64,000 bases of DNA from NCBI GenBank assembly GCA_945893185.1, contig CAMDDW010000002.1, forward strand, positions 66,597 to 130,596, read 5' to 3'. The notes beneath the pieces were generated by a model. That model searched no databases and was not told where the DNA came from. It saw only the letters and a program-made list of their open reading frames with translations. Each line of letters opens with the position of its first letter. Position 1 is the first letter of the stretch. Shown here in pieces: positions 15,437 to 27,279 of the stretch. The stretch is from Akkermansia muciniphila (GTDB lineage Bacteria; Verrucomicrobiota; Verrucomicrobiia; Limisphaerales; UBA9464). The translations under genes were made by a program, and so were the position numbers.

Positions 15437-17209
15437 ATGGCCGACGCCTCGACACCCACCCAAACGCTTCTCGATCGGATGATCGCCGAGCGGCAACTTT
15501 CTGCCGCCGATGCGTTGGCGTTTGTCCAGGCTCGGTTGCTCATAGGATCTTCAACCGCGGGGGGTGAGCATGCCACCGAGCGGGATGTTCTAGAATGGCT
15601 GAGCCACGAATATGGAGTGGGGTTTCTTCCCCTGGATTCGGTCGAGGCCGATCGTGAGGTGCTGGCGCTCTTCCCGGCTCGCATTCTACTGAAGGAAGAA
15701 TTGCTGCCGCTGCGCCGCGACAACGGTTCCATCGAGATTGCCAGTTGCCGTCTTTTTGCGACGCGGGGACTGGACACGCTCCGTTCACTCACTGGCCTCC
15801 GTCTCAAATTGGTTCTGTCGCCGCGGGAGGCGCTCCAGCGGGAGATGAAGAAAAACCTCGGAGTCGGAGCCGACACCATCGGCGCACTCGACGAGGAGAA
15901 ATCGGTCCAAGTCGTCGATGAAAACACCGAGGATTCCAACCTCGACGCCGGAGCCGAGGATGAAGCGTCGATCATTCGCTTCGTCAACCAAGTCCTTAAG
16001 GATGCCATTGAACTGCGCGCCTCCGACATCCATCTAGAACCCTTCGAGCACGAATTCCGCATCCGGTACCGCATAGACGGCGAGTTGCAGGAAATTCCGC
16101 TCCCGGCTCAGCTCAAGCAGTTCCAACCGGCCATCGTTTCGCGTGTCAAAATCCTCAGTCATCTGAACATCGCCGAGAAGCGCTTGCCTCAGGATGGGCG
16201 TATCAAGGTTCGGATCGAAGACACCGAGGTAGACATTCGTGTCTCGGTAATTCCGATGCTTCATGGCGAGGCGGTTGTCATGCGTCTTCTGCGACAGAAC
16301 TCGACCCTGAGGGGTCTGGCCCATATCGGTCTTGGAGACCGCGAGTTGGAGCGTTTTCAGAAGGTGCTAAATTTGCCACACGGCATAGTGCTGGTGACAG
16401 GCCCGACCGGCAGCGGCAAGACCTCGACTCTTTACACTGCCCTCAACGAGATCAACGACGAGGTCCGCAAGATCATCACGATCGAGGACCCTGTTGAATA
16501 TCAGCTCCGGGGCGTGAACCAGATCCAGGTTTCGGAGAAGGCCGGACTTACCTTTGCTCGTGGGTTGAGGTCGATCCTCCGCCACGATCCAGATGTCGTG
16601 CTCATCGGTGAAATCCGAGATCGAGAGACAGCGCAAATCGCGGTGCAGGCCTCACTGACCGGCCATTTGGTTTTCTCTACCCTGCACACCAACGATGCAC
16701 CCGGCGCTCTGACCCGCTTGGTAGATATGGGGGTCGAGCCGTACCTCGTGGCGTCGTCTCTCGAAGCCGTTCTAGCCCAGCGGTTGGTTCGAGTCTTGTG
16801 TCCTCATTGCAAGGTTCCCGACACCTCGGCTCATGCGAAATCCTTCCGATCCCGCATGGGCATTGCTCCAGAGGTCGAACTCTTTAAGGCCGTCGGATGC
16901 CGCGAATGCCGGCAAACTGGATTCTTCGGACGTCATGCCATCTTTGAATGGATGGACACCGATGAGAATATCCGTCGGCTGATTCTGGAAAATGGCTCAA
17001 CCGACCAAATTCGTTCGGCAGCCCGAACCTCCGGCATGCGAACATTGGCCGAGGACGGTTGGCGCTTGGTGGCTCAGGGTATCACCACCGTTGAAGAGGT
17101 CTTGAGCGTCACGACCGACAAGGAAACACCGCGATTTCAGGCTCCGGCCGATTCATGCGAAGCCACGGACCGAGCCCGAGTATCTGGGTCATCGGGTTCA
17201 CGAACCTGA
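15437..17209 (+). CDS. gspE: type II secretion / type IV pilus assembly ATPase (GspE/PilB family)
   Basis: N-terminal T2SSE_N-like domain, Walker A VTGPTGSGKTST, ITIEDPVEY, Asp/His boxes, and the tetracysteine motif CPHC...CRECRQTG. Confidence 0.9.
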   Translation: MADASTPTQTLLDRMIAERQLSAADALAFVQARLLIGSSTAGGEHATERDVLEWLSHEYGVGFLPLDSVEADREVLALFPARILLKEELLPLRRDNGSIEIASCRLFATRGLDTLRSLTGLRLKLVLSPREALQREMKKNLGVGADTIGALDEEKSVQVVDENTEDSNLDAGAEDEASIIRFVNQVLKDAIELRASDIHLEPFEHEFRIRYRIDGELQEIPLPAQLKQFQPAIVSRVKILSHLNIAEKRLPQDGRIKVRIEDTEVDIRVSVIPMLHGEAVVMRLLRQNSTLRGLAHIGLGDRELERFQKVLNLPHGIVLVTGPTGSGKTSTLYTALNEINDEVRKIITIEDPVEYQLRGVNQIQVSEKAGLTFARGLRSILRHDPDVVLIGEIRDRETAQIAVQASLTGHLVFSTLHTNDAPGALTRLVDMGVEPYLVASSLEAVLAQRLVRVLCPHCKVPDTSAHAKSFRSRMGIAPEVELFKAVGCRECRQTGFFGRHAIFEWMDTDENIRRLILENGSTDQIRSAARTSGMRTLAEDGWRLVAQGITTVEEVLSVTTDKETPRFQAPADSCEATDRARVSGSSGSRT

Positions 17210-17212
17210 CCC

Positions 17213-18472
17213 ATGCCGACCTTCACCTACCGAGCACTGCAAGCCAATGGGCAGATGGCCGATGGCATCGCTGATGCGGCCACCCGTTCTGAAGCCTTGC
17301 GAGTCATCGAGACTCGAGGCCTGCGTCCGGTCAGCGTCACCGAAGCCGGAGGAAGCGGAAATCGAACGGTCAAATCTGGCAAGGATTCGGCCGCCGGAAC
17401 CCAGGGTCTGGGCCGGTTGTCTTTTGGTGGTTCCAAGGTGAGCTCGGAAGAATTAGAGAATTTCACCCGGCTGCTCTCCAGCCTTCTCGCGGCCGGGGTG
17501 CCGTTGAGCCGGGCGCTGACCATCCTCGGTAAGGAGGCTTCGTCGCCGGTGGCCTCGGCGAAGTGGCGAGAAATCCACGGACTGGTAGTGGATGGCATGT
17601 CCCTGGCCAACGCCATGGCCCGATCCCCAGAAACCTTCCCGAAGGTTTACACGGCGATGGTCGAGGCCGGTGAGGCCGGTGGATTTCTTGACGTTGTCCT
17701 GGCGCAAATCGCTGACTTCCAGTCCCGGGAAAAGGAGCTCCGCTCAAAGGTGCTCACGGCAATGATCTACCCAGCGGTTCTGCTGCTGATGGCCGCGGTG
17801 GTGCTGAGCGTGCTGCTGGTCTTTTTCATTCCTAAATTCCAGAAAGTCTTCGCCAGCGTGAAGGGCGGCTTGCCCCTCATTACCCAGATCATTATCGCCA
17901 CCAGCGACATCCTACGTTCTTACGGGGTGTTGGTGTTGATCGGGTTGGTACTCGGTAGTTTCTTTTTGAAAACCTGGATCGTCTCGCCAGCAGGCCGGCG
18001 CATTTGGGAAGGGCTGACTTTGAAGGCGCCGGTCGTGGGTCCGCTCAGTGCCCGATTTGCTATGGCGCGTTTTTGCCGAATGCTGGGAACCTTAATTGGG
18101 GCGGATGTCCAATTGGTTCAGGCACTAAATGTGGCCCGTCGTTCGATCGGCAACCAAATCCTGGTCGATGCCGTGGCTCGTTCGATCGACCAGGTGCAGC
18201 AGGGTGGACGTCTCGGCCAAAGTTTGGCGGAGTGCCCCACCCTCTTCAGTGGGGCCGTAATGGAGATGATCTCGGTGGCGGAAGAGAGTGGGCGACTGGA
18301 TGTCGAACTCATCCGCATCGCCAACGTCACGGAGAGTGAATTAGACCGACGTCTTAAAACTGCGGTGGCCTTGGCCGAGCCGCTGATACTCTTTCTGATC
18401 GCCGGTTTTATCGGCTTCATCTTTATCGGTATGCTGCTTCCGGTTTTCTCGCTGCAAGACTACATCAAGTAA
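17213..18472 (+). CDS. gspF: type II secretion platform protein (GspF/PilC family)
   Basis: 419 aa with two T2SSF repeats (LSSLLAAGVPLSRAL ..., CRMLGTLIGADVQLVQAL ...) and three TM segments. Starts 3 nt after gspE. Confidence 0.9.
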   Translation: MPTFTYRALQANGQMADGIADAATRSEALRVIETRGLRPVSVTEAGGSGNRTVKSGKDSAAGTQGLGRLSFGGSKVSSEELENFTRLLSSLLAAGVPLSRALTILGKEASSPVASAKWREIHGLVVDGMSLANAMARSPETFPKVYTAMVEAGEAGGFLDVVLAQIADFQSREKELRSKVLTAMIYPAVLLLMAAVVLSVLLVFFIPKFQKVFASVKGGLPLITQIIIATSDILRSYGVLVLIGLVLGSFFLKTWIVSPAGRRIWEGLTLKAPVVGPLSARFAMARFCRMLGTLIGADVQLVQALNVARRSIGNQILVDAVARSIDQVQQGGRLGQSLAECPTLFSGAVMEMISVAEESGRLDVELIRIANVTESELDRRLKTAVALAEPLILFLIAGFIGFIFIGMLLPVFSLQDYIK

Positions 18473-18486
18473 TTCCTTCTGACCTC

Positions 18487-18942
18487 ATGAACCTGAACCT
18501 CTCCCTTCGTCCCCAGGCAGGAGCCTTTGCCGGCAAGACACGTCGTCGCCACCGTGGTTTCACGCTGGTCGAGATGCTGTTAGTCATCACCATCATCGGT
18601 ATTTTGGCCGCCCTCGTGGTCCCCAAGATGATGGGTCGCAGCGAACAGGCCCGGCAGTCGGCGGCCCGAGCGGATATCGCCTCAATCAAGACAGCCTTGG
18701 ACGCCTACGAGGTAGACAATGGCTCCTACCCCAAGACCTTGGCTGACCTCCTCCAGGCGCCACGGCAGGCCCGCAACTGGCGCGGACCTTATCTCGACAA
18801 AATCCCTCAGGATCCCTGGGGCAACGAATATCTGTACGCTCAACCGGGACGACAAAATGCCACCTTCTTCGATCTGTCCTCCATCGGGCCGGACGGCAAG
18901 GCGGGAACCGAGGATGACTTTGGCAACTGGACGGCCAAATAA
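18487..18942 (+). CDS. gspG: major pseudopilin GspG
   Basis: Prepilin site G|FTLVEMLLVITIIGILAA, then ARADIASIKTALDAYEVDNGSYP ... WRGPYL ... PQDPWGNEYLY ... GPDGKAGTEDD, typical of GspG. Confidence 0.9.
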   Translation: MNLNLSLRPQAGAFAGKTRRRHRGFTLVEMLLVITIIGILAALVVPKMMGRSEQARQSAARADIASIKTALDAYEVDNGSYPKTLADLLQAPRQARNWRGPYLDKIPQDPWGNEYLYAQPGRQNATFFDLSSIGPDGKAGTEDDFGNWTAK

Positions 18943-19516
18943 AAGTCACAGCCCGAAGAATTCGCGGCGGCATGGCTTCACCTTGATCGAAATGATCTTA
19001 GTGATGGCCCTGTTGGTGGTGGCTGTCTCCATGGTGTCTCCGCGCCTGTCGGGATTCATCCGCGGCCGAGCCTTGGAGTCCGAGGCCCGTCGGGTTCTGG
19101 CCCTGACGCATGCGGCCCGGAGTCGGGCTATTTCTGAGAGCATGCCTGTCTTGTTGTGGCTCGACGCCACCGTGGGTCGCTATGGTGTCGAGCGCGAGAC
19201 CCGTGGTCAAAATGGCGATCCGTTGTCTCAAGAGTTCACCGTCGATGACAATCTCCGGATCGCCTTTGATCAGGCCCAGCGCCTTATTGGTCAGACTTTG
19301 ACGGGCACTCGCACCACGGGTCTGCTGCCAGGAGTCTCCACCTCCCCTAAGCCCGCCACGGCACGGACAGAACCGTCGATCCGGTTCCTGCCGGATGGAA
19401 CCCTCGATGAGGACAGTCCCAATGCCATCCGCATCGAGGACTCGGAGGGGTCCGTGCTGTGGCTCGTTGAAGGGTCCGACCGCCGTCATTATGAAATTCG
19501 CACCGGTCTCCAATAA
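18914..19516 (+). CDS. minor pseudopilin, GspH/FimT-like
   Basis: Prepilin motif RRHG|FTLIEMILVMALLVVAV followed by PRLSGFIRGRALESEARRVLALTHAARSRAI. The start is inferred at ATG 18914, overlapping the gspG end. Confidence 0.6.
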   Translation: MTLATGRPNKSHSPKNSRRHGFTLIEMILVMALLVVAVSMVSPRLSGFIRGRALESEARRVLALTHAARSRAISESMPVLLWLDATVGRYGVERETRGQNGDPLSQEFTVDDNLRIAFDQAQRLIGQTLTGTRTTGLLPGVSTSPKPATARTEPSIRFLPDGTLDEDSPNAIRIEDSEGSVLWLVEGSDRRHYEIRTGLQ

Positions 19517-19913
19517 CCGTCGGCGAGCGGGATACACCCTGGCGGAGACGCTGGCGGCCCTCCTCTTTTTGGCCATCGTTATCCCCGCCGTGGTCGAGGC
19601 CCTGCATGTGGCGAGTCGAGCCGGCACAGCGTCTATTCGGCGGGCTGTGGCCGCCCGCATTGCTGAACGGATGCTCACCGAGGCGACCCTTTACACCAAT
19701 AGCAGTGCCACGCAAAGCGGGACTCAGGTCGAGGGAACGGTGGACTACCGGTGGACGGTGACCCGCGAGAACTGGGTGCAAAGCAGCTTGCCGTTATTGA
19801 CGGCCGAGGTGCGCTTCCTGACGCAGGGACAGGAGTCCTCGGTCCGGTTTTCCACGTTGGATCACCCCGTCGATGCGATCCCTGGCAGCAGCAGCAGTAC
19901 CGCCACCCGATGA
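19491..19913 (+). CDS. minor pseudopilin, GspI-like
   Basis: MKFAPVSNNRRRAG|YTLAETLAALLFLAIVIPAV. About 140 aa. Overlaps the preceding gene. Confidence 0.55.
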   Translation: MKFAPVSNNRRRAGYTLAETLAALLFLAIVIPAVVEALHVASRAGTASIRRAVAARIAERMLTEATLYTNSSATQSGTQVEGTVDYRWTVTRENWVQSSLPLLTAEVRFLTQGQESSVRFSTLDHPVDAIPGSSSSTATR

Positions 19914-20614
19914 TCACCCGAGTTTCATCCGGAAGCAGGAACCCATCGGGGTTCACGTTGATCGAATTGATCCTCTCGATGGGAGCGGCAGCCCTCATCC
20001 TCATTGTCGCAAACCAAATTCTCTTCACGAGTCTTCGGCTCCGCAACACGGTTTCTGATGCGATCGAATCGGCGGCCCCGCTGGAGCTGGCGCTCGATGC
20101 CCTGCGCCAAGACATCCAGGGTGCGGTGACCCCTAAGACCAATGGACTCATCTCCGGCTCCTTCCGCGCCGGTACTCTGTCCAGTACCGTCAATGCCCAG
20201 CCCGTTTCGCTCGAGTTCAATACAACCACCGGTTCGCTGCGGGCTTCAGAGCCCTGGGGCGCGGTTCAACGCGTTTCCTACAGTCTCCGGAATTCGGTCG
20301 AAGGAGAATCGGCTTCGATGGACCTTTATCGCGGCGTGTGCCGAAATCTTCTGGCCATCACCGTGGCCGAAGTGGAGGACCAACTCCTCTTGCGCGATGT
20401 GGCTCGTCTGGATGTAGAATCCTTCGACGGCACTCAGTGGCTAGCGCAGTGGGACACCACCGATGTCTTTGGCACCACCACCAACCTTCCGGTGGCCGTC
20501 CGCATTCGTCTCCAGCGTGGGGTTTCTTGGGGTCCCGACCCGGGACTCGTCGAATTATTGGTGCCCATGAGCGCCCAGACACGCACCAACTCCACCAGCA
20601 CCGTCGGAGGCTGA
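19910..20614 (+). CDS. minor pseudopilin, GspJ-like
   Basis: MITRVSSGSRNPSG|FTLIELILSMGAAALILI. ATGA overlap with the preceding stop (19910-19913). Confidence 0.55.
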   Translation: MITRVSSGSRNPSGFTLIELILSMGAAALILIVANQILFTSLRLRNTVSDAIESAAPLELALDALRQDIQGAVTPKTNGLISGSFRAGTLSSTVNAQPVSLEFNTTTGSLRASEPWGAVQRVSYSLRNSVEGESASMDLYRGVCRNLLAITVAEVEDQLLLRDVARLDVESFDGTQWLAQWDTTDVFGTTTNLPVAVRIRLQRGVSWGPDPGLVELLVPMSAQTRTNSTSTVGG

Positions 20615-20616
20615 GC

Positions 20617-22047
20617 ATGGTACCCCCAATCCTCAGCCGGGAAATCAGGACGCGGGCGAGAATAGGCAGGCCCTGGGCTGCGCCGGATTTTCGCGCCGGA
20701 TCCCGGGCGTCGGTCTTGGTGGTGGTGCTGTGGATTACGGCGGGACTGACGGCGCTAGTTCTCTACTTCGCAGCCTCCATGGGTTTGGAGTTGCGGGCTT
20801 CGGCCAATCGAGCGGCCGACGTGGCGGCGGGCCAGGCCATTGAGGGCGCGGCGCGCTATGTGGGGTGGGCGTTGGCTCAGTTTGCCACCAACGGGATGAT
20901 GACCACTAATTCCCAGTTTGTTTGCCAGGCTTTGCCCATCGGAGAATCCCGGGTCTGGATTGTGGGCCGCAATCCGGCCGCTGCAGAATCCGGGCTCAAT
21001 CAGTTGGTTTTCAACCTTCAGGATGAGTCGGGAAGGCTCAACCTCAACCGGGCCAATTCCAATGCCCTCTCGATGTTACCCGGGATGAGCACCGAGTTGG
21101 CTGCCGCCATCGTGGATTGGAGGAGCACCAACGGCACCTTGGAGTTGGGTTATTCGAGTTTGGGCTATGAAGCCAAGCGGAGTCCGTTTGAAACGGTCGA
21201 TGAGTTGCGATGGGTCCAGGGCATTACCTTGGATCATCTCTTTGGGGACGATCGCAACCAGAATGGAATCCTGGACCCCGACGAACGCAGCCTCACCGGA
21301 TCCCTGTCTTCGACCCCAGGCCTGCTGGATACGACCACCGTCTTTAGTCGGGAGCCCAATTTTCATGCCGATGGAACCCTCCTGACCAACGTCAACACCC
21401 AGGCCCAAATCCAGGGATTGCTCGAATCATCCTTCGGCACCGGCCGCAGCCGCGAGATCCTGACCCGCTTGGGCTTCACCCAGGGCGGGGGCCCCGGGGG
21501 TGGAGGCGGAGGTGGAGGAGCCGCCGCGACTCCCAACTTCCCGAGTTTGTTGCGTTTTTATCTGACCAGTGGCCTAAGCCAAGATGACTTCGAACGCATC
21601 ACCCCAGAACTGTGTGTCACCACCAATACCTACAGCTATGGACGGGTGAACCTGAACACGGCCAACGCCACCGTCCTCACCGCACTCTTTGTCGGGGCAG
21701 GCTTGGCTCAAGAAGCCGCAGAGGGTGCCGCCTCGACACTCGTTCGGTACCGAGAACAAAATACGACGAGCCTGAACTCCATCGCTTGGATGGTGACTGC
21801 GCTCGGTCGTGATCATCAGGCCGTAACCACTTTGGCTGGCCGCGATCTCCTTACGACGAAGAGCTTCCAATATGGAGCCGACCTGGTGGCCGTAGGGCCT
21901 TTGGGCCGAGGTTATCGCCGAGTGAAGTTCATTTTTGATATGAGTGATGGAGTCCCGAAGATTCTCTACCGACAAGATCTCAGCCGATTGGGCTGGGCTT
22001 TGGGGGACCGTGTCCGTGAGGAGATCGCCCAGCAAATCGATCGCTAG
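20617..22047 (+). CDS. GspK-like minor pseudopilin
   Basis: N-terminal TM SVLVVVLWITAGLTALVLYF without Glu+5. Two helix-hairpin-helix-like segments (LNLNRANSNALSMLPGMSTELAAAIVDWR; VNLNTANATVLTALF). Contains a poly-Gly tract. Confidence 0.6.
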   Translation: MVPPILSREIRTRARIGRPWAAPDFRAGSRASVLVVVLWITAGLTALVLYFAASMGLELRASANRAADVAAGQAIEGAARYVGWALAQFATNGMMTTNSQFVCQALPIGESRVWIVGRNPAAAESGLNQLVFNLQDESGRLNLNRANSNALSMLPGMSTELAAAIVDWRSTNGTLELGYSSLGYEAKRSPFETVDELRWVQGITLDHLFGDDRNQNGILDPDERSLTGSLSSTPGLLDTTTVFSREPNFHADGTLLTNVNTQAQIQGLLESSFGTGRSREILTRLGFTQGGGPGGGGGGGGAAATPNFPSLLRFYLTSGLSQDDFERITPELCVTTNTYSYGRVNLNTANATVLTALFVGAGLAQEAAEGAASTLVRYREQNTTSLNSIAWMVTALGRDHQAVTTLAGRDLLTTKSFQYGADLVAVGPLGRGYRRVKFIFDMSDGVPKILYRQDLSRLGWALGDRVREEIAQQIDR

Positions 22048-22066
22048 ATAAAGGCCCAGACCCCCC

Positions 22067-23509
22067 ATGATGAATTTTCTGAAACTGGGTTCCCGTCCGC
22101 GCAAAGCTCCGCCCTCCGTACTGGGGCTTTCGTGGGAGGGTCGTCGCATCGAGGGCAGCCTCCTGCGCCGGACACAGAGCGGGCTGGAGAAAACGGGCGG
22201 ATTTCAGGCCGAACTGTCTCTGGATATCGATTCCGGTGATCCGGAAACGGTCGGCAAGGAGCTCCGGGCTCAACTCGACAAGGCCGGCATCCGCGAACGC
22301 AACTGTGCAGTGGCTCTGTCGGTTTCTAGCCTGCTGGTCACCCAGACAGAGATCCCGGTGATGGCCGATGCCGATGTCCTCAGCCTGTTGCAACTGGAGG
22401 CTGAGAAGGGTTTTCATGGCGATACTTCGACCCATCAGGTGGCCCACTCGCGGTGTGTCCGGGGTGAAAGTAGCCAATGGGTGACCTTGGCCGCACTGAC
22501 GCAGTCTCGTTTGGCCTCTCTGGAACGGTGGACCCGTTGTGCGCGGCTCAAGCTGGTGAGTGTCTCTGTGGCCCTGTGTGAGCTCGAGCCTCCCGAAGAC
22601 CCCGCCTCGGAGGGGGTGCTGGCGTTGCACCTCGGATCCGGGCCCGGGCCGGTGACGCTCCAGATGAGCGCGGGAGGCGGCCTGGTGGCTTTGCGGTCCT
22701 TCGAGGGCGTTACCGAAGACTTGTCGGGCCAGTCGGTTTTGCACGCCGACAGCGTAGCGCGGGAGATCCGGATCACCTTGGGTCAGCTCCCCGATCCGTG
22801 GAATGGCTCCATCCGGGATGTCCGTATTTTCGGTCCGCAAGACCTGGCCCAAACGCTGGCCACTGAGCTGTCCGCTCGATTGGCGGTTTCCGGTTTCCGG
22901 ATCCGGCTCCAGACCACCCAAGTGCCGGGCTTGGCCCAGTCCGAGGAGCTTCCGATTTCAGCTGTGGTCGCAGCCCGAGTGCTGGCCTCGCGGCCGGCGA
23001 CCCTAGAGTTTCTACCCCCGAAGCCATCGGTGCTCCAACAATTCCTGGCCCGTCACGCCCAAGGGCAGCGACGGACGGTCTGGACCGTTGCCGTCGGCTT
23101 GGGAGTCCTCGTAGCCCTTGTTTTCCTGATTCAGCAAATTCAGCTCTCGCTCTTGGAGTCCCGATGGGCGGGTCTCTCAGGCAAGGTCCGGGAACTGGAA
23201 CGTATCCAGCAGGATTTGCGACAATTCCGACCCTGGACTCCTCAGTCGGCCCGCGGCTTGGCTATTTTAGAGGTCCTTACCAGTGCCTTCCCCGAGAACG
23301 GAACAGTGACGGCCAAGGTGATCGAAATTCGAGAATCGGGCGAGGTCGTCTGTAGTGGCACGGCCACCGATAGTCCGGCCTTTTTAGCGATGACCGCCCG
23401 TCTGAGCTCCCAGCCCGGGGTCACTAAGGTTCACCACGACCAATCCCGCGGCGCTTCTCCGATGCAGTTCAACCTTACCTTCCTGTGGAATGGAGGCCTG
23501 GCTCGATGA
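22067..23509 (+). CDS. PilM-like (actin-fold) cytoplasmic domain, TM segment and PilN-like periplasmic domain; GspL-equivalent assembly protein
   Basis: The N-terminal 300 aa resemble PilM/GspL (VLGLSWEGRRIEG ... AVALSVSSLLV ... LLQLEAEKGF). A single TM follows (VWTVAVGLGVLVALVFLI), then a region of about 130 aa. The call rests partly on position in the operon. Confidence 0.5.
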   Translation: MMNFLKLGSRPRKAPPSVLGLSWEGRRIEGSLLRRTQSGLEKTGGFQAELSLDIDSGDPETVGKELRAQLDKAGIRERNCAVALSVSSLLVTQTEIPVMADADVLSLLQLEAEKGFHGDTSTHQVAHSRCVRGESSQWVTLAALTQSRLASLERWTRCARLKLVSVSVALCELEPPEDPASEGVLALHLGSGPGPVTLQMSAGGGLVALRSFEGVTEDLSGQSVLHADSVAREIRITLGQLPDPWNGSIRDVRIFGPQDLAQTLATELSARLAVSGFRIRLQTTQVPGLAQSEELPISAVVAARVLASRPATLEFLPPKPSVLQQFLARHAQGQRRTVWTVAVGLGVLVALVFLIQQIQLSLLESRWAGLSGKVRELERIQQDLRQFRPWTPQSARGLAILEVLTSAFPENGTVTAKVIEIRESGEVVCSGTATDSPAFLAMTARLSSQPGVTKVHHDQSRGASPMQFNLTFLWNGGLAR

Positions 23510-24042
23510 ATCCCACCCAACGCCAACGCCTCCTCATGATCGTGACCCTGGCCGCCGTGGGTCTCTACATCGCCGACCTAGTGTTCATCACGCCGATGGG
23601 TCGAGTCTGGTCGGAGCGCTCCGCTCGCATCGCGGTCCTGCGGCGTCAGGTGAGCGAGGGACGGGCTTTAATCCTGCGCGAGCCGGGACTTCGGGACCAA
23701 TGGAACCATTTGCGCACCAACGCCCTGCCCCAGGAACCCTCCCAAGCCGAGCAGCGTCTGCTCAGGGCCTGCGACGAATGGGCTAAGGCTTCAGGGGCTC
23801 AGATCGTGGATCGAATGCCCCAGTGGAAGGGCGACGAAGCCGCCTACCAGATGTTGCGGTGCCGACTCGAGACTTCCGGATCTCTGGCGAGTCTGAGTCA
23901 GTTTCTCCAGCGGCTTGAAGAGGGCCCTTTGGCGGTTAAGGTGGATAGTCTTCAGTTGATGAGCCGCGATCCCGCAGGTCGGCAGTTGACTCTCGGCCTC
24001 CAAATCAACGGCCTCGTGCTCAATCCCTCGTCCAAGCCATGA
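23506..24042 (+). CDS. GspM/PilO-like bitopic assembly protein
   Basis: N-terminal TM (LLMIVTLAAVGLYIADLVFI), coiled segment, small C-terminal domain. ATGA overlap with the preceding gene. Confidence 0.4.
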   Translation: MNPTQRQRLLMIVTLAAVGLYIADLVFITPMGRVWSERSARIAVLRRQVSEGRALILREPGLRDQWNHLRTNALPQEPSQAEQRLLRACDEWAKASGAQIVDRMPQWKGDEAAYQMLRCRLETSGSLASLSQFLQRLEEGPLAVKVDSLQLMSRDPAGRQLTLGLQINGLVLNPSSKP

Positions 24043-24653
24043 AGGTTCCTCCCTCAATCTGGATCGGCTCCCTGACGGCCGGGGTTCTTCTAGGGGCCCT
24101 GCTGGGTTTTGCGGCCGAGACCCATCCGACGCCGGTCAATGATTCCAAGGAAGTGGCTCGACGCGTGGCCGATCGAAACATCTTCGATCCGGAAAGGCAG
24201 CCCAGGATCCGGGGTGAATCCCGACCGACGCCCAAGCCGAAGGCGGTGGTCGCGGCCGATTCCCCCGAGTTCGGACTGGTAGGAATCATTAGCTATCCCA
24301 GAGGCACCTTTGCCTTCTTCGACGGCAACGCTTCGGAGTTTCACAAGACTCTCCAGCTCAACGCGGTCATCGCAGGCCAGACCCTGAGCACGATCACTTC
24401 TCAATCGATCACCTTGATGGCGACCAATCGTCCCCCGAATTTGCTGAAGGTGGGTCAACGGCTGCGTCAGGATTCAGAAGGTGTTTGGCAATTGGTGACA
24501 GGCCTCGGCGGTGAAGGGTTCAAGCGATTGGGCTCAGCCGGGGGAGCGACCGGGACGTCGTCGGCCTCGTCGACGACTCCGAGCGAAGATCCCCCAGGAT
24601 CCGATGAAATTTTGAAGCGGCTTTTGAAAAAACGGGAACAGGAGATGAAATGA
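24039..24653 (+). CDS. GspC/PilP-like protein
   Basis: N-terminal TM, RNIFDP motif, beta-rich segment LVGIISYPRGTFAFFDG ... VIAGQTLSTITSQSITL. ATGA overlaps on both sides. Confidence 0.4.
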   Translation: MKVPPSIWIGSLTAGVLLGALLGFAAETHPTPVNDSKEVARRVADRNIFDPERQPRIRGESRPTPKPKAVVAADSPEFGLVGIISYPRGTFAFFDGNASEFHKTLQLNAVIAGQTLSTITSQSITLMATNRPPNLLKVGQRLRQDSEGVWQLVTGLGGEGFKRLGSAGGATGTSSASSTTPSEDPPGSDEILKRLLKKREQEMK

Positions 24654-25939
24654 AGAACTTGATCACTCGAGCCTTTGGCGCTGCCTGTGCTGTGGGATGT
24701 TTGGCTGGCGGCCTGGTAGCCCAGGATGCCAGTACATCCACCAGCAATGCCCCAGCCACAAACCGAACCTATAATGCCACGCCTCAATCGGCAACGCCCC
24801 GAGGAGAGCAGAACTCAGCCGGCGGCAGCACTGCTGGGATCCAGATGAATTTCAGGAACGCTCCGTTGGAGCAGGTTCTTGAATACCTGAGCGAAGCGGC
24901 CGGTTTCATTATCGTTCTGGACGCCCCCGTGAAGGGCACCGTCAACGTGATCAGCGCCAAACCACTGAGTCAGGATGAGGCGGTAGATTTTCTAAGTTCG
25001 GCCCTCAATAAGAATGGCCTAGCGGCCATTCGGGACGGTCGAACTCTGACCATCGTTGACCGCATAGCGGCCAAGACCCGGGACATTCCGGTGAAGGTAA
25101 ATAACGATCCCCGGATGATCCCGAAGAACGATGAGATCGTGACGCAAATCATACCGATTCGATACGTCGAGGCCGATCAATTGGCCAAGGATCTCGTCTC
25201 CTTCATCTCACCCCAGGCGACCTTCGTGGCCAATGCAGCCGGCAACTCCATCGTGATGACCGACACCCAAGCCAATATCCGGCACATGGTGGAGATCATC
25301 AAAGCCATCGACTCGAGTGCCGAAGCCGAGACCGAAATCCGCGTGTTCCATCTGACCCATGCCAGCCCTTCCGATGTGGCCACGGCCCTGGCTGGGGTGT
25401 TTCCCAGCAGCAGCGGGTCGGGCAACAACAATCAGGCACCGGTCCGGTTTGGTGGAGGACCCTTTGGAGCGGGCGGTTTTGCCGCGATGATGGGCGGCGG
25501 CGGTGGAGGTGGACGAGGTGGTGGCGGCGGCGGCGGTGGTGGCGGTAATTCAGCAGCCGGACAAAATGATCGGATCCGCCGTGCATCGCAGGTCATGGCC
25601 GTACCCGACTCCAGGACTTCTTCGGTGATCGTCACTGCTTCCAAGAATTTGATGACCCAGATCGCTGGCATGGTTCGCGAATTGGATGTGGTTTCCACGC
25701 GGGACCAGCAAGTGCACGTGTTTCGTATGAACAACGGCGACCCTCAGCAGGCGGCGCAGGTGCTGCAGAACATGTTCCAGAGCACATCGGGCGGCCGGAC
25801 AGGCTCCAGCGGCAGTGCTCAGAACAGTGCGCTTATGCAGCGCCAGCAAAACAACAACCAGACCACGGGCAGTACCTCCAGTGGATCGGGTACCTTTGGG
25901 AATAGCGGCGGTGGCCGCTCCGGCGGGCAACTGTTCTGA
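24650..25939 (+). CDS. gspD: secretin N-terminal half (N0-like plus Secretin_N repeats), no pore domain
   Basis: Signal peptide. MNFRNAPLEQVLEYLSEAAGFIIVLD ... TLTIVD (N0-like). IPIRYVEADQLAKDL ... IVMTDTQANIRHMVEIIKAIDS and IRVFHLTHASPSDVATAL ... VIVTASKNLMTQIAGMVRELD (N domains). Ends after VHVFRMNNGDPQQAAQVLQNMF in a low-complexity tail. Confidence 0.75.
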   Translation: MKNLITRAFGAACAVGCLAGGLVAQDASTSTSNAPATNRTYNATPQSATPRGEQNSAGGSTAGIQMNFRNAPLEQVLEYLSEAAGFIIVLDAPVKGTVNVISAKPLSQDEAVDFLSSALNKNGLAAIRDGRTLTIVDRIAAKTRDIPVKVNNDPRMIPKNDEIVTQIIPIRYVEADQLAKDLVSFISPQATFVANAAGNSIVMTDTQANIRHMVEIIKAIDSSAEAETEIRVFHLTHASPSDVATALAGVFPSSSGSGNNNQAPVRFGGGPFGAGGFAAMMGGGGGGGRGGGGGGGGGGNSAAGQNDRIRRASQVMAVPDSRTSSVIVTASKNLMTQIAGMVRELDVVSTRDQQVHVFRMNNGDPQQAAQVLQNMFQSTSGGRTGSSGSAQNSALMQRQQNNNQTTGSTSSGSGTFGNSGGGRSGGQLF

Positions 25940-25965
25940 ACTTAAGAACCTTGAACGATTCCAGA

Positions 25966-27279
25966 ATGAAAACCAGTGGTTCTATCTTTTCGCGATTCCT
26001 TTCCATGGCCTCGGCGTTTCGCGTCTTGGCCGCAGTCCTTGGATTGTCCTTAGTCCTACCCGCCATAGCCCAGCAGCGCGGCGGTGGTGGCGGAGGCGGA
26101 GGCTTTGGCGGCGGTGGTGGTTTCGGTGGCGGCGGAGGCTTTGGTGGTGGCGGAGGCGGGGGCAATCGCGGCTCCGGATCCTCGGGTCTCTACAACAACA
26201 ACGGCACGGTGGGCAGCGCCCTGATTTCGGTCGATCCGCAGACCCACAATTTGGTGGTCATTGCTGATGCCCTGACAGCCCTGCAAATTAGCAACGTCAT
26301 CCGGAATCTCGATTCACCTAAGCCGCAGGTGCTTATTAAGGTGGTCTTCATGGAGGTTGAGAAGAAAAACGGCTCTGAACTCGGAGTCGAAGGCGCTTGG
26401 GCCAAGAACAACATTGGAAACAACATCAGCAGCGGTGGTGGTACTGTGATGGGTCTTTCAGGGGTGAACAGTATCAGCACCAACTTGAACGGCTTGGGGC
26501 AATCGATGGGAACGGCACTGACTCCGTCTTCTACAGCTACCGGCAACGGTTCCGGTGGCCTTTATTCCATCGCAGGCTCCGAGTTTCAGGCGACGCTCCG
26601 GGCTGTGGCTACATCTGGAAAAGCGCAGGTTTTATCCCGTCCGTCGATTATCGCCCGCGATGGCCAATTGGCCCGCATTGTGGTCGGTCAAAAAGTTCCC
26701 CTACCCAGCGGTGTTTCTTATTCAGGCACTGCTGGCAACACCATCCCCATTATCAATGTTACCTATGACGACGTGGGTATCATCCTGAACGTCACTCCGT
26801 TCATTGGTTCAAATGGTCAAGTCGAGATGATCGTCCAACCGCAAATCTCTTCAGTCTCACAGACTGAACGGCAGTTCTTGTCGGCCGGTATTTCGGCTCC
26901 CTACATTAATATTCGTTCAGCCGACACCGTGGTGGTCACTCCGCATGCAGAGACCGTCGTTATTGGCGGCCTCATCTCTAATAAAGAATCTCAGGCCGAG
27001 ACGAAGGTTCCCTACTTGGGCGACATCCCGATTCTGGGCAACTTGTTCAAGTCCCGCGCCAAGAGCGACACCAAGACCGAACTCCTCATCTTTCTGACGC
27101 CCTACATTCTCCAGGCACCTTCTCAGTTGGCTCAATTGACAACGAAGGAAACCCACCAAGCGTCGTTGATCACCAATTCTGTCTCAGAGATGGATCTCAA
27201 CCGATTCCTTGAAAAGGTCCCGGTCAAATCAGACGCCCCGGCCCCGGCCCCCAAGTCCAAGGGATTCTTCAAAAAGTGA
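25966..27279 (+). CDS. gspD: secretin C-terminal half (half N-domain plus secretin pore domain) with its own signal peptide
   Basis: MKTSGSIFSRFLSMASAFRVLAAVLGLSLVLPAIA|QQ, a (GGGGF)3 tract, then LISVDPQTHNLVVIADALTALQISNVIRNLDSPKPQVLIKVVFMEV and the secretin core (FQATLRAV..SGKAQVLSRPSI ... VVIGGLI ... VPYLGDIPILGNLFK ... ELLIFLTPYIL). The ORF opens at TTG 25951; the first ATG is at 25966. Confidence 0.85.
   Translation: MKTSGSIFSRFLSMASAFRVLAAVLGLSLVLPAIAQQRGGGGGGGGFGGGGGFGGGGGFGGGGGGGNRGSGSSGLYNNNGTVGSALISVDPQTHNLVVIADALTALQISNVIRNLDSPKPQVLIKVVFMEVEKKNGSELGVEGAWAKNNIGNNISSGGGTVMGLSGVNSISTNLNGLGQSMGTALTPSSTATGNGSGGLYSIAGSEFQATLRAVATSGKAQVLSRPSIIARDGQLARIVVGQKVPLPSGVSYSGTAGNTIPIINVTYDDVGIILNVTPFIGSNGQVEMIVQPQISSVSQTERQFLSAGISAPYINIRSADTVVVTPHAETVVIGGLISNKESQAETKVPYLGDIPILGNLFKSRAKSDTKTELLIFLTPYILQAPSQLAQLTTKETHQASLITNSVSEMDLNRFLEKVPVKSDAPAPAPKSKGFFKK

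What the first reader, a model, noticed from the sequence alone, without database searches (positions are those of the whole stretch)
24650..27279. Secretin split into two separately exported polypeptides, broken inside the last N-domain loop
Canonical GspD/PilQ secretins are single chains. Here ORF1 (24650-25939) has a signal peptide and an N0-like domain plus Secretin_N-type modules. It stops after VHVFRMNNGDPQQAAQVLQNMFQ, the first beta-alpha half of an N domain, followed by a Ser/Gly/Asn/Gln tail. ORF2 lies 26 nt downstream in a different frame. It begins with its own credible signal peptide (MKTSGSIFSRFLSMASAFRVLAAVLGLSLVLPAIA|QQ) and a (GGGGF)3 tract. It then continues with LISVDPQTHNLVVIADALTALQISNVIRNLDSPKPQVLIKVVFMEV, the second half of an N domain that runs straight into the pore-forming secretin core. 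The break therefore sits exactly in the variable loop of the N domain abutting the gate. A hydrophobic leader in the middle of a loop is hard to explain by a simple frameshift. This suggests a genuine two-component secretin whose last N domain is reconstituted in trans.
Basis: partly seen in the sequence, partly recalled or inferred. Interest (0 to 1): 0.6.

Follow-up and report, generated by a model that had tools for sequence, protein, structure and literature searches.

The report
Naturally split type II secretin

Summary
ORF1 (24650-25939) carries a signal peptide, N0, N1, N2 and the first β-α of N3. ORF2 (25966-27279) carries its own signal peptide, a Gly/Phe tract, the β-β-α rest of N3 and the pore domain. 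They match GspD profile positions 1-295 and 301-600. Each N3 half scores below the Pfam threshold alone (17.7 and 16.2 bits). Joined, they score 33.9 bits over the whole Secretin_N profile.

It is not an error or a pseudogene. All 77 related species genomes with readable upstream sequence have the same two genes. Their relative reading frames are uniform (16/16/15), the spacer is about 26 nt, and both signal peptides are kept. Four pairs at 38-46% identity, one on a closed 6-Mb chromosome, break at the same position. Split-type secretins form one clade. The nearest fused relatives (about 40% identity, same gspE-to-C gene order) have a roughly 100-residue Gly-rich loop exactly there.

AlphaFold2 on the concatenated pair folds both N3 halves confidently (pLDDT 71-86) around a disordered linker. 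Reconstitution in trans is inferred, not shown.

A split secretin is known only for rhizobial type III systems, where the break lies between domains. I rate this a new variant of a known kind.

The parts
15437..24653 (+). Upstream type II secretion genes in one direction: gspE 15437-17209, gspF 17213-18472, gspG 18487-18942, gspH/I/J about 18970-20614, gspK 20338-22047, gspL-like 22067-23509, gspM 23485-24042, gspC-like 24039-24653.
   Evidence: NCBIfam and Pfam hits. GspE scores 602 bits, GspF 339 bits and GspG 140 bits. GspH, I, J, K, M and C match more weakly, and gspL-like is assigned by position only. The same gene order is seen next to a fused gspD in L082.
24650..25939 (+). ORF1, 'GspD-N' (429 aa): the periplasmic N-module polypeptide. 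Its ATG overlaps the gspC-like stop codon (ATGA).
   Evidence: TIGR02517 positions 1-295 of 600, E = 2.7e-57. All 120 best database hits are 290-451 aa and carry only N0/Secretin_N domains.
24650..24721 (+). ORF1 signal peptide (residues 1-24, MKNLITRAFGAACAVGCLAGGLVA|QD).
   Evidence: The n/h/c regions and the A|Q[DE] cleavage site are conserved in homologues. The Cys is replaced by Trp in P0233 and P0236, so ORF1 is not a conserved lipoprotein.
24845..25039 (+). N0 domain (residues 66-130).
   Evidence: PF21305, E = 3.6e-15. Modelled with pLDDT 62-72.
25142..25318 (+). N1 domain (residues 165-223).
   Evidence: PF03958 best stretch. Modelled as β-α-β-β-α with pLDDT 72-82.
25331..25684 (+). 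N2 domain (residues 228-345), with a Gly-rich insertion of about 60 residues (254-312) in its α1-β2 loop.
   Evidence: Second Secretin_N stretch. The model has the ordered halves at pLDDT 71-83 and the loop at 34-46. GGC-type codon repeats lie at 25493-25546.
25703..25780 (+). N3a: the first half of the N3 ring-building motif (residues 352-377; β1 at 354-359, α1 at 365-376).
   Evidence: Secretin_N profile positions 1-26, 17.7 bits alone. Conservation is 0.77, as high as an intact domain. pLDDT is 71-81 in the concatenated model.
25781..25936 (+). ORF1 C-terminal Ser/Gly/Asn/Gln-rich tail (residues 378-429), ending in Phe.
   Evidence: Conservation is 0.51-0.63 and pLDDT 30-43. The last residue is Phe or Tyr in 40 of 45 homologues.
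25937..25965 (+). TGA stop of ORF1 plus the 26-nt intergenic spacer.
   Evidence: Nearly identical in five independent MAG assemblies. No promoter-like or terminator-like site is present. In relatives the spacer has a median of 26 nt.
25966..27279 (+). ORF2, 'GspD-C' (437 aa): the outer-membrane C-module polypeptide.
   Evidence: TIGR02517 positions 301-600 of 600, E = 6.1e-74. All 120 best database hits are 257-446 aa, with Secretin alone or with a partial Secretin_N match. The best solved relatives are XcpQ 5WLN and GspD 5WQ7.
25966..26070 (+). ORF2 signal peptide (residues 1-35, ...VLAAVLGLSLVLPAIA|QQR).
   Evidence: The maximum 10-residue hydropathy is 2.6. A35, Q36 and R38 are invariant in 24 homologues reaching down to 56% identity.
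26071..26190 (+). Mature N-terminal Gly/Phe-rich tract (residues 36-75, QQR(G)nF repeats).
   Evidence: The composition is conserved in all homologues. An 18-nt tandem repeat lies at 26088-26157. pLDDT is 30-34.
26191..26313 (+). YNNNGTVGSA motif (residues 76-85) and N3b, the second half of N3 (residues 86-116; β2, β3, α2).
   Evidence: Secretin_N profile positions 25-69, 16.2 bits alone. Joined to N3a, the score is 33.9 bits over positions 1-69. Conservation is 0.90 for the motif and 0.73 for N3b. pLDDT is 82-86.
26314..27141 (+). Pore-forming secretin core (residues 117-392).
   Evidence: PF00263, E = 2.1e-47. pLDDT is 67-90 outside the variable 532-609 region of the model. Foldseek matches PulD, GspD, ExeD and XcpQ with probability 1.00.
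27142..27279 (+). C-terminal region with the conserved helix ...SEx(E/D)L(D/N)RFLE..P.K, followed by the stop codon.
   Evidence: Alignment A1. Helices at 781-792 and 802-811 of the model. A role as an S domain (the C-terminal pilotin-binding domain of some secretins) was not tested.

Best explanation
What it is. This is a genuine, anciently fixed gene fission of the type II secretion secretin GspD.

How it arose (inferred from comparison). The ancestral single gene had a long, disordered Gly/Ser/Phe-rich insertion in the α1-β2 loop of N3, the ring-building motif next to the pore. Within that loop a stop codon, a short spacer, a start codon and a new Sec signal peptide became fixed.

The two products (shown from sequence).
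- GspD-N (ORF1) has a signal peptide, N0, N1, N2, β1-α1 of N3 and a disordered tail ending in Phe.
- GspD-C (ORF2) has a signal peptide, a Gly/Phe tract, β2-β3-α2 of N3, the secretin pore domain and a C-terminal helix.
- The two genes are co-transcribed at the end of the gspE-to-gspC operon.
- Each product is exported on its own through the Sec pathway.

How it most likely works (inferred).
- In the periplasm, the β1-α1 'hook' of GspD-N completes the half-domain on GspD-C by fragment complementation.
- This rebuilds a normal β-α-β-β-α N3 domain and so attaches the periplasmic N-module to the outer-membrane C-module without a peptide bond.
- The N-module would then bind GspC and form the vestibule, as in canonical systems.
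- The assembled complex would work as an ordinary secretin pore.
- Because N3 belongs to the conserved C-module and takes part in ring formation, pore assembly may depend on the N-module being present.
For: A real split rather than an artefact.
- All 120 best hits to each half are half-length with the matching domain set.
- 77 of 77 species-representative loci with upstream sequence show an ORF1-type gene directly upstream of an ORF2-type gene.
- The relative frame is uniform (16/16/15) in the 47 cleanly parsed pairs (46 loci plus the window), the spacer has a median of 26 nt, and stop codons are ordinary (TAA 29, TGA 15, TAG 3).
- The junction DNA is near-identical in five independent MAGs.
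- The split is also found on a closed 6.0-Mb chromosome (L088).

Both halves are exported.
- The ORF2 leader keeps its n/h/c organisation, with A35, Q36 and R38 invariant.
- The ORF1 leader is conserved with an A|Q[DE] cleavage site.

The halves are complementary.
- TIGR02517 positions 1-295 and 301-600.
- Secretin_N scores 17.7 bits (profile 1-26) and 16.2 bits (profile 25-69) for the separate halves, and 33.9 bits (profile 1-69, cut-off 28.2) when joined.

Both halves are under selection.
- Conservation is 0.77 for N3a and 0.73 for N3b, against 0.75 for the pore domain and 0.51-0.63 for the tail.

Structure prediction.
- The AlphaFold2 model of ORF1 plus mature ORF2 used an alignment that included 12 natural fused secretins.
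- N3a has pLDDT 71-81 and N3b 82-86, around a 98-residue linker at pLDDT 30-43.
- β1 is assigned as a paired strand.
- The model aligns with PulD over 775 columns at E = 1.6e-34.

Origin.
- The fused relatives P0267, P0274 and P0300 are collinear across the break and have a loop of about 100 residues there.
- P0300 sits in the same gspE-to-gspC-like gene order.
- 37 of the 40 short-type clusters form one clade in the neighbour-joining tree. The other three look like truncated gene calls.
- Pairs at 38-46% identity (core region) break at the same position.

The loop is flexible in canonical secretins.
- It is Gly-rich in XcpQ.
- PulD residues 288-303 could not be modelled (PMC6882859).
Against: - No experiment shows two stable products, their association or their function.
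- The structure model is of one covalent chain, not a true two-chain prediction. The tool reports no contacts, so docking is inferred from pLDDT and strand assignment.
- The paired information in the second model comes from fused relatives at 27-36% identity.
- Signal peptides were judged by hand, without SignalP.
- The neighbour-joining tree has no support values.
- Nearly all genomes are uncultured MAGs, so expression is unknown.
- No selective advantage of the split has been identified.
Confidence: 0.8

Rival explanations
1. The split is a sequencing or assembly error, or a recent inactivating frameshift, in an ordinary single-chain gspD. The Gly-codon repeats would be the error-prone site, and the second 'signal peptide' would be a chance hydrophobic stretch.
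For: A single indel between about 25906 and 25936 could join the two frames. GGC-type tandem repeats lie nearby.
Against: The same stop codon, spacer and start codon occur in five independent assemblies, and the split occurs in 77 of 77 loci. Relative frames are uniform, including 16 of 47 pairs where the two ORFs are in the same frame and are separated by a stop codon. The leader is conserved down to 38-46% identity with an invariant cleavage motif. Both halves are under purifying selection. The repeats lie 300-400 nt from the junction, and neither reading frame is broken by them.
Confidence: 0.01
2. The two genes are real, but the proteins do not rebuild N3. GspD-C would form a short, self-sufficient pore, like the Tad secretin RcpA. 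GspD-N would act as an independent periplasmic adaptor that binds GspC and contacts the pore only loosely or through another surface. The two half-domains would be vestiges or would have acquired new roles.
For: Short secretins of about 420 aa with little more than N3 and the pore domain exist and assemble; RcpA 8ODN is among the hits. The first AlphaFold2 model did not place N3a confidently. The family-specific motifs (YNNNGTVGSA, C-terminal Phe) hint at additional or alternative contacts.
Against: An isolated β1-α1 segment cannot fold on its own, yet it is as conserved as intact domains (0.77). It is retained at the same position in pairs at 38-46% identity. N3b is likewise retained rather than lost or completed. 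The joined halves score as one full Secretin_N domain and are modelled confidently once alignment depth is available. The strict adjacency of the two genes points to co-function.
Confidence: 0.12
3. A single chain is restored after transcription, either by programmed frameshifting or stop-codon read-through, or by covalent ligation of the two exported proteins in the periplasm. The functional secretin would then be single-chain after all.
For: The spacer is short. The ends are conserved: a C-terminal aromatic residue on ORF1 and an invariant Q-x-R at the mature N-terminus of ORF2.
Against: Relative frames are uniformly distributed and spacers vary from 3 to 78 nt in most loci, so no single recoding mechanism fits. 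The window's spacer has further stop codons in ORF1's frame. Read-through would place a cleavable signal peptide in the middle of the protein. No intein, sortase-like or slippery-site motif was seen, and no ligase gene is conserved next to the pair.
Confidence: 0.03

Closest known systems
Canonical single-chain T2SS secretins GspD/PulD/XcpQ (PDB 6HCG, 5WQ7, 5WLN, 5WQ8)
   Same: The domain order is the same: N0-N1-N2-N3-secretin. The operon context is the same (gspC to gspM upstream). They are the best sequence and fold matches. The N3 α1-β2 loop is also Gly-rich or disordered in them. The published bimodular description, with an N-module of N0-N2 and a C-module of N3 plus pore plus S domain (PMC10550240), nearly coincides with the two polypeptides.
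   Different: Here there are two polypeptides, each with its own signal peptide. The cut lies 25 residues inside N3, not at a domain boundary. Both N2 and N3 carry long Gly-rich tracts. Neither half alone reaches the TIGR02517 cut-off of 351 bits (194.6 and 249.6 bits).
Closest fused relatives from metagenomes (P0267, P0268, P0274, P0277, P0292, P0300; 802-855 aa)
   Same: They are collinear with ORF1 plus ORF2 across the whole length. They carry the same Gly/Ser/Phe-rich loops in N2 and N3. P0300 lies in the same gspE-to-gspC-like operon order.
   Different: They are single ORFs, with an unbroken loop of about 100 residues where this family has a stop codon, a spacer and a signal peptide. They are only 36-40% identical over the core region (37-40% to ORF2) and fall outside the split clade in the tree.
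Rhc-family T3SS 'split secretin' RhcC1 (NolW) plus RhcC2 of rhizobia and Pseudomonas syringae T3SS-2 (PMC3574062, PMC3973906)
   Same: This is the only previously described secretin encoded as separate N-terminal and C-terminal genes. Its functional significance is also stated to be unknown.
   Different: It belongs to type III, not type II, secretion. The two genes are about 13 kb apart on opposite strands in S. fredii. NolW ends after a complete N domain (SctC profile 2-142). RhcC2 has its own pil_N and BON domains plus the Secretin domain, like CpaC/RcpA (SctC profile 234-462). So that break lies between domains, and no domain has to be rebuilt from two chains.
Short Tad-type secretins RcpA/CpaC (PDB 8ODN)
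   Same: They are similar in size to ORF2 (about 420 aa) and have a pore domain with only a small periplasmic part.
   Different: RcpA has complete N-terminal domains of its own (pil_N/BON type). ORF2 has neither; it has only half of a Secretin_N domain, and a dedicated N0-N2 partner gene lies upstream.

Membership tests
Secretin superfamily (GspD/PilQ/SctC/pIV) | A C-terminal pore-forming Secretin domain (PF00263). | tested here: met
   ORF2 residues 214-382, 161.3 bits, E = 2.1e-47. Foldseek probability is 1.00 to PulD, GspD, XcpQ and InvG.
T2SS secretin GspD (TIGR02517 equivalog) | N0 plus repeated Secretin_N ring-building domains N-terminal to the pore domain. | tested here: met
   N0 (PF21305, 56 bits) and Secretin_N (87 bits) lie on ORF1. 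The last Secretin_N domain is divided between ORF1 and ORF2.
T2SS secretin GspD (TIGR02517 equivalog) | All domains on one polypeptide that scores above the curated cut-off (351.35 bits). | tested here: not met
   ORF1 scores 194.6 bits (profile 1-295) and ORF2 249.6 bits (profile 301-600). Each is below the cut-off, and they are separate ORFs in 77 of 77 loci.
T2SS secretin GspD (TIGR02517 equivalog) | Encoded with the T2SS assembly platform, ATPase and pseudopilin genes. | tested here: met
   gspE, F, G, H, I, J, K, L-like, M and C-like lie immediately upstream on the same strand.
T2SS secretin GspD (TIGR02517 equivalog) | Forms a roughly 15-mer gated outer-membrane channel that binds GspC through N0. 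| not testable with these tools
   This needs biochemistry or cryo-EM. Only a monomer model is available.
Rhc-type split T3SS secretin (RhcC1/RhcC2) | T3SS gene context, with the break between complete domains and the two genes at separate places in the cluster. | tested here: not met
   The context here is T2SS, the break is inside a domain, and the genes are adjacent. In S. fredii, NolW covers SctC profile 2-142 and RhcC2 is pil_N + BON + Secretin, 13 kb away.
Tad-type short secretin (CpaC/RcpA) | T2SS-T3SS_pil_N (PF13629) and BON domains N-terminal to the Secretin domain. | tested here: not met
   Neither domain is detected in ORF2 at E up to 0.1, whereas both are detected in RhcC2 by the same scan.
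Pseudogene or frameshift artefact | The disruption is absent from close relatives, has no conserved start codon or leader after the break, and selection is relaxed. | tested here: not met
   The split, the leader and the conservation of both halves hold across the clade.

The most novel reading that the evidence does not exclude
The fission may do more than cut a loop.

- It turns a closed, disordered Gly/Ser/Phe-rich loop at the N3 constriction into two free-ended disordered chains per protomer.
- These are ORF1's tail of about 52 residues ending in a conserved Phe, and ORF2's GGF tract of about 40 residues.
- With 15 protomers there would be about 30 such chains, and the N2 loops would add to them.
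- If they point into the channel, they could form an FG-nucleoporin-like entropic or cohesive barrier inside a bacterial secretion pore.
- Non-covalent attachment of the N-module might also let it dock and undock, so the pore could be coupled to or released from the inner-membrane machine on demand.

Nothing here tests the orientation or dynamics of these chains.
Probability: 0.1. Interest if true: 0.85.

Novelty: new variant of a known kind. Interest (0 to 1): 0.62.

Why it matters
Secretins are the common outer-membrane gate of type II and type III secretion, type IV pili and filamentous phage export. They are treated as single-chain, bimodular proteins.

- A whole bacterial clade builds the T2SS gate from two exported chains joined only through a split ring-building motif. 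That is a natural experiment on how the periplasmic N-module and the pore module are coupled, and on whether N3 must be covalently continuous for ring assembly.
- It points to a permissive split site that could be used to engineer two-piece secretins, for example to load or exchange N-modules.
- It is a clean example of gene fission inside a domain in which a new signal peptide was acquired.
- It has a practical consequence for annotation. Neither half reaches the GspD equivalog cut-off, and many copies are labelled 'hypothetical protein' or partial. T2SS inventories in Verrucomicrobiota may therefore miscount or misname this component.

Tried and rejected
Structure prediction inputs.
So true inter-chain covariation from the 45 real pairs could not be used.
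- Three MAFFT alignments that mixed ORF1-type and ORF2-type rows (A3, A4, A7) were shifted by one N domain. ORF1's N2 has the same Gly-rich loop plus β-β-α layout as the start of ORF2. I detected this by checking coordinates and discarded the alignments.

Structure prediction results.
- The first AlphaFold2 job (A6, with no depth over N3a) was inconclusive for docking, with pLDDT about 50. Its Foldseek search only confirmed the pore fold.
- Foldseek output gives no residue ranges, so it could not show N3a placement directly.

Other checks that led nowhere.
- A Shine-Dalgarno analysis, meant to infer translational coupling of ORF2, was uninformative because most genes in this operon lack such motifs.
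- The cluster look-up gave no taxonomy for the fused relatives.
- Five literature searches found no description of a split GspD. The library lacks many subscription-journal papers, so absence is not proof.

Explanations considered and rejected: an intein or ligation mechanism and programmed recoding (see the rival explanations).

Full report
**1. Observation**

- ORF1 (24650-25939, 429 aa) begins with a signal-peptide-like leader, MKNLITRAFGAACAVGCLAGGLVA|QD.
- Pfam finds an N0 domain at residues 66-130 and Secretin_N modules in ORF1.
- ORF1 ends with DQQVHVFRMNNGDPQQAAQVLQNMFQ and a 52-residue Ser/Gly/Asn/Gln tail.
- After a TGA stop and 26 nt, in another frame, ORF2 starts at the ATG at 25966 (437 aa, ending at 27279).
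- ORF2 has the leader MKTSGSIFSRFLSMASAFRVLAAVLGLSLVLPAIA|QQR, then a Gly/Phe tract, then LISVDPQTHNLVVIADALTALQISNVIRNLD, then the Secretin pore domain (PF00263, E = 2e-47).
- The curated GspD model TIGR02517 is divided cleanly: ORF1 matches positions 1-295 and ORF2 matches positions 301-600.

**2. Where the break lies**

I scanned the two N-domain fragments against Pfam, both separately and joined in silico.

| Fragment | Score (bits) | Secretin_N profile positions |
|---|---|---|
| ORF1 end alone | 17.7 | 1-26 |
| ORF2 start alone | 16.2 | 25-69 |
| Both joined | 33.9 (E = 3.8e-8) | 1-69 |

- The family cut-off is 28.2 bits, so only the joined sequence passes.
- The cut is therefore in the α1-β2 loop of the last N domain (N3).
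- In the closest solved secretin, P. aeruginosa XcpQ (5WLN, E = 2.6e-42), the same loop reads NNGGQGGEQTGGGRPSN.
- In the PulD cryo-EM structure, residues 288-303 could not be modelled (PMC6882859). By my alignment they lie just before N3 β2, at about residue 308.
- Secretins are described as bimodular, with a variable N-module (N0-N2) and a conserved C-module (N3 ring-building motif, pore, S domain) (PMC10550240).
- The two polypeptides here almost match those modules, but the N-module chain keeps the first 26 residues of N3.

**3. Context**

- Upstream on the same strand are gspE, F, G, H, I, J, K, an L-like gene, gspM and a C-like gene.
- There are ATGA start/stop overlaps at gspM/gspC-like and at gspC-like/ORF1.
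- No promoter-like or terminator-like site lies between ORF1 and ORF2.
- The downstream gene (apgM) is unrelated.

**4. Not an artefact and not a pseudogene**

- In a 5.8-billion-protein database, all 120 best hits to ORF2 are 257-446 aa with the Secretin domain, and none has N0.
- All 120 best hits to ORF1 are 290-451 aa with only N0/Secretin_N.
- A scan of one genome per species found more than 571 relatives. The best 80 loci are all Verrucomicrobiota-type MAGs (subdivision 3, Limisphaerales).
- In all 77 loci with upstream sequence, an ORF1-type gene lies directly before the ORF2-type gene.
- Among the 47 cleanly parsed pairs (46 loci plus the window), the relative reading frame is 16/16/15, which is uniform.
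- This includes 16 pairs that are in the same frame and separated only by a stop codon.
- The spacer has a median of 26 nt, and stop codons are TAA 29, TGA 15 and TAG 3.
- This is the pattern expected of two independently translated genes. It is not the pattern of a frameshift error or a recoding site.
- The junction DNA of the window is almost identical in five independently assembled MAGs from different sites.

**5. Both halves are exported and both are under selection**

- ORF2-type proteins keep a basic N-terminus, a hydrophobic core and an invariant A|Q-x-R site down to 56% identity.
- ORF1-type proteins keep MK..TR, a hydrophobic core and an A|Q[DE] site. The Cys is not conserved, so ORF1 is not a lipoprotein.
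- Conservation across 45 true locus pairs, measured as the mean fraction of the majority residue, is shown below.

| Segment | Conservation |
|---|---|
| N3a (ORF1) | 0.77 |
| Second half of N2 | 0.76 |
| N3b (ORF2) | 0.73 |
| Pore domain | 0.75 |
| ORF1 tail | 0.51-0.63 |
| Signal-peptide core | 0.37 |

An orphan β-α segment that cannot fold by itself would not be this conserved unless it has a partner.

**6. Origin**

- An exhaustive profile search against cluster representatives shows that short, leader-bearing secretins dominate the top of the list.
- The nearest full-length secretins appear at 37-40% identity (P0267, P0268, P0274, P0277, P0292, P0300).
- These fused proteins are collinear with ORF1 plus ORF2 (alignment A8).
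- They have an unbroken Gly/Ser/Phe-rich loop of about 100 residues at the site of the split.
- P0300 lies in the same gene order, gspE through a C-like gene, followed by one 826-aa gspD.
- In a neighbour-joining tree of the N3b-plus-pore region, 37 of 40 short secretins form a single clade apart from 69 fused ones. The three outliers lack a leader and look like truncated gene calls. The tree has no support values.
- Four distant or deep-branching members (P0249, P0256, P0260, P0286; 39-46% identity over the core region) each have an N0/Secretin_N gene 13-78 nt upstream.
- All four break at the same structural position. One of them lies on a closed 6.0-Mb chromosome.
- The simplest history is one ancient fission inside an already expanded disordered loop, with a new signal peptide acquired at that point.

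**7. Structure prediction**

- A first model had alignment depth only over ORF2. It gave the right secondary structure but pLDDT of about 50 for N3a.
- A second model used ORF1 plus mature ORF2 (831 aa), with 31 ORF1-type proteins and 12 natural fused secretins in a verified alignment. Its results are below.

| Region | Residues in model | pLDDT |
|---|---|---|
| N3a (β1, α1) | 354-359, 365-376 | 71-81 |
| N3b (β2, β3, α2) | 480-509 | 82-86 |
| Segment between the halves | 378-475 | 30-43 |
| N1 | 163-223 | 72-82 |
| N2, ordered halves | 228-250, 316-345 | 71-83 |

- β1 is assigned as a paired strand although it has no strand neighbour in its own chain segment.
- This supports a composite N3 domain. 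However, it is a single covalent chain with a long floppy linker, not a true two-chain prediction.

**8. Mechanism**

- Shown: two co-oriented adjacent genes, two conserved Sec-type leaders, exact complementarity of the halves, and conservation across a clade.
- Inferred: after separate export, β1-α1 of GspD-N completes the half-domain of GspD-C. This attaches the GspC-binding N-module to the pore module without a peptide bond, and the complex then works as a normal secretin.
- Not known: the stoichiometry, the order of assembly, and why the split was fixed.

**9. Comparison with what is known**

- A 'split secretin' is described only for the Rhc family of type III systems (PMC3574062, PMC3973906).
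- I mapped it in S. fredii.
- NolW/RhcC1 (233 aa) is N0 plus one complete N domain (SctC profile 2-142).
- RhcC2 (475 aa) has pil_N, BON and Secretin domains (SctC profile 234-462).
- RhcC2 lies beside a CpaD-family lipoprotein gene, 13 kb from nolW and on the other strand.
- That split lies between domains, and RhcC2 looks like a Tad-type secretin.
- The present case differs in four ways: the system is T2SS, the genes are adjacent, the break is inside a domain, and a new leader was acquired.
- Five full-text searches found no report of a split GspD. A survey of type IV filament systems discusses fission only for TadB/TadC (PMC6668835).

**10. Verdict**

- It is a new variant of a known kind.
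- The in-trans reconstitution step remains an inference that a multimer prediction or a pull-down experiment could settle.

Noticed in passing
Relatives P0328 (4695 aa), P0389 (4560), P0358 (4449), P0385 (4428), P0373 (4297), P0357 (4238) and about 20 others of 1,400-4,000 aa: Giant proteins carry a secretin pore domain at their extreme C-terminus, preceded by thousands of residues. Most of them group together in the neighbour-joining tree. Their organisms and N-terminal content were not examined.
   Followed up: no
window 25922-25936 (ORF1 C-terminus ...GGQLF); also L083, L087 and L088: ORF1-type proteins end in an aromatic residue (Phe 35 and Tyr 5 of 45 pairs) after a low-complexity tail. 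The same holds in three of the four distant or deep-branching pairs examined (GFGF*, GSRF*, GRSF*; L085 ends GGFGG*). A conserved free C-terminal Phe has no counterpart in single-chain secretins and is unexplained.
   Followed up: partly
window 26191-26220 (ORF2 residues 76-85): The motif YNNNGTVGSA, just before β2 of N3, is the most conserved stretch of the whole family (0.90). It is not present as such in the fused relatives, and it may be part of the docking surface for the ORF1 half.
   Followed up: partly
window 25409-25585 (ORF1 residues 254-312): The N2 domain has its own Gly-rich insertion of about 60 residues in the same α1-β2 loop position as the N3 break, encoded partly by GGC-type tandem repeats. 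It is predicted to be disordered. The resemblance between the N2 and N3 layouts repeatedly misled MAFFT.
   Followed up: partly
L081:19365-21368 and L081:33713-34417 (S. fredii pSF45436a): The rhizobial RhcC2 has the CpaC/RcpA domain set (pil_N + BON + Secretin) and is followed by a CpaD-family lipoprotein gene, while NolW is N0 plus one N domain. The classical 'split T3SS secretin' may therefore be an SctC N-part working with a Tad-type secretin, rather than a simple fission.
   Followed up: partly
L030, L038, L051, L056, L071, L075 (titled Bifidobacteriaceae or Bifidobacterium); L004, L076 (Akkermansia muciniphila); L036 (Dongiaceae); L054 (Ca. Sulfotelmatobacter); L068 (Ca. Limnocylindria): Genome records that carry this Verrucomicrobiota-type T2SS locus are titled with unrelated taxa. 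This probably reflects binning or labelling errors in the source assemblies.
   Followed up: no
window 22067-23509 and 24039-24653: The genes in the gspL and gspC positions have no significant Pfam match, and gspC-like has only a weak NCBIfam hit (E = 6.5e-4). They are assigned mainly by position and by synteny with L082, so they are very divergent platform components.
   Followed up: no
L087:6447-9541 and L088:6445-9497: In the deepest split-secretin lineage, a histidine kinase and a sigma-54-dependent response regulator directly follow the ORF2-type gene in both loci. This suggests dedicated regulation of that T2SS, and it is absent from the window.
   Followed up: no
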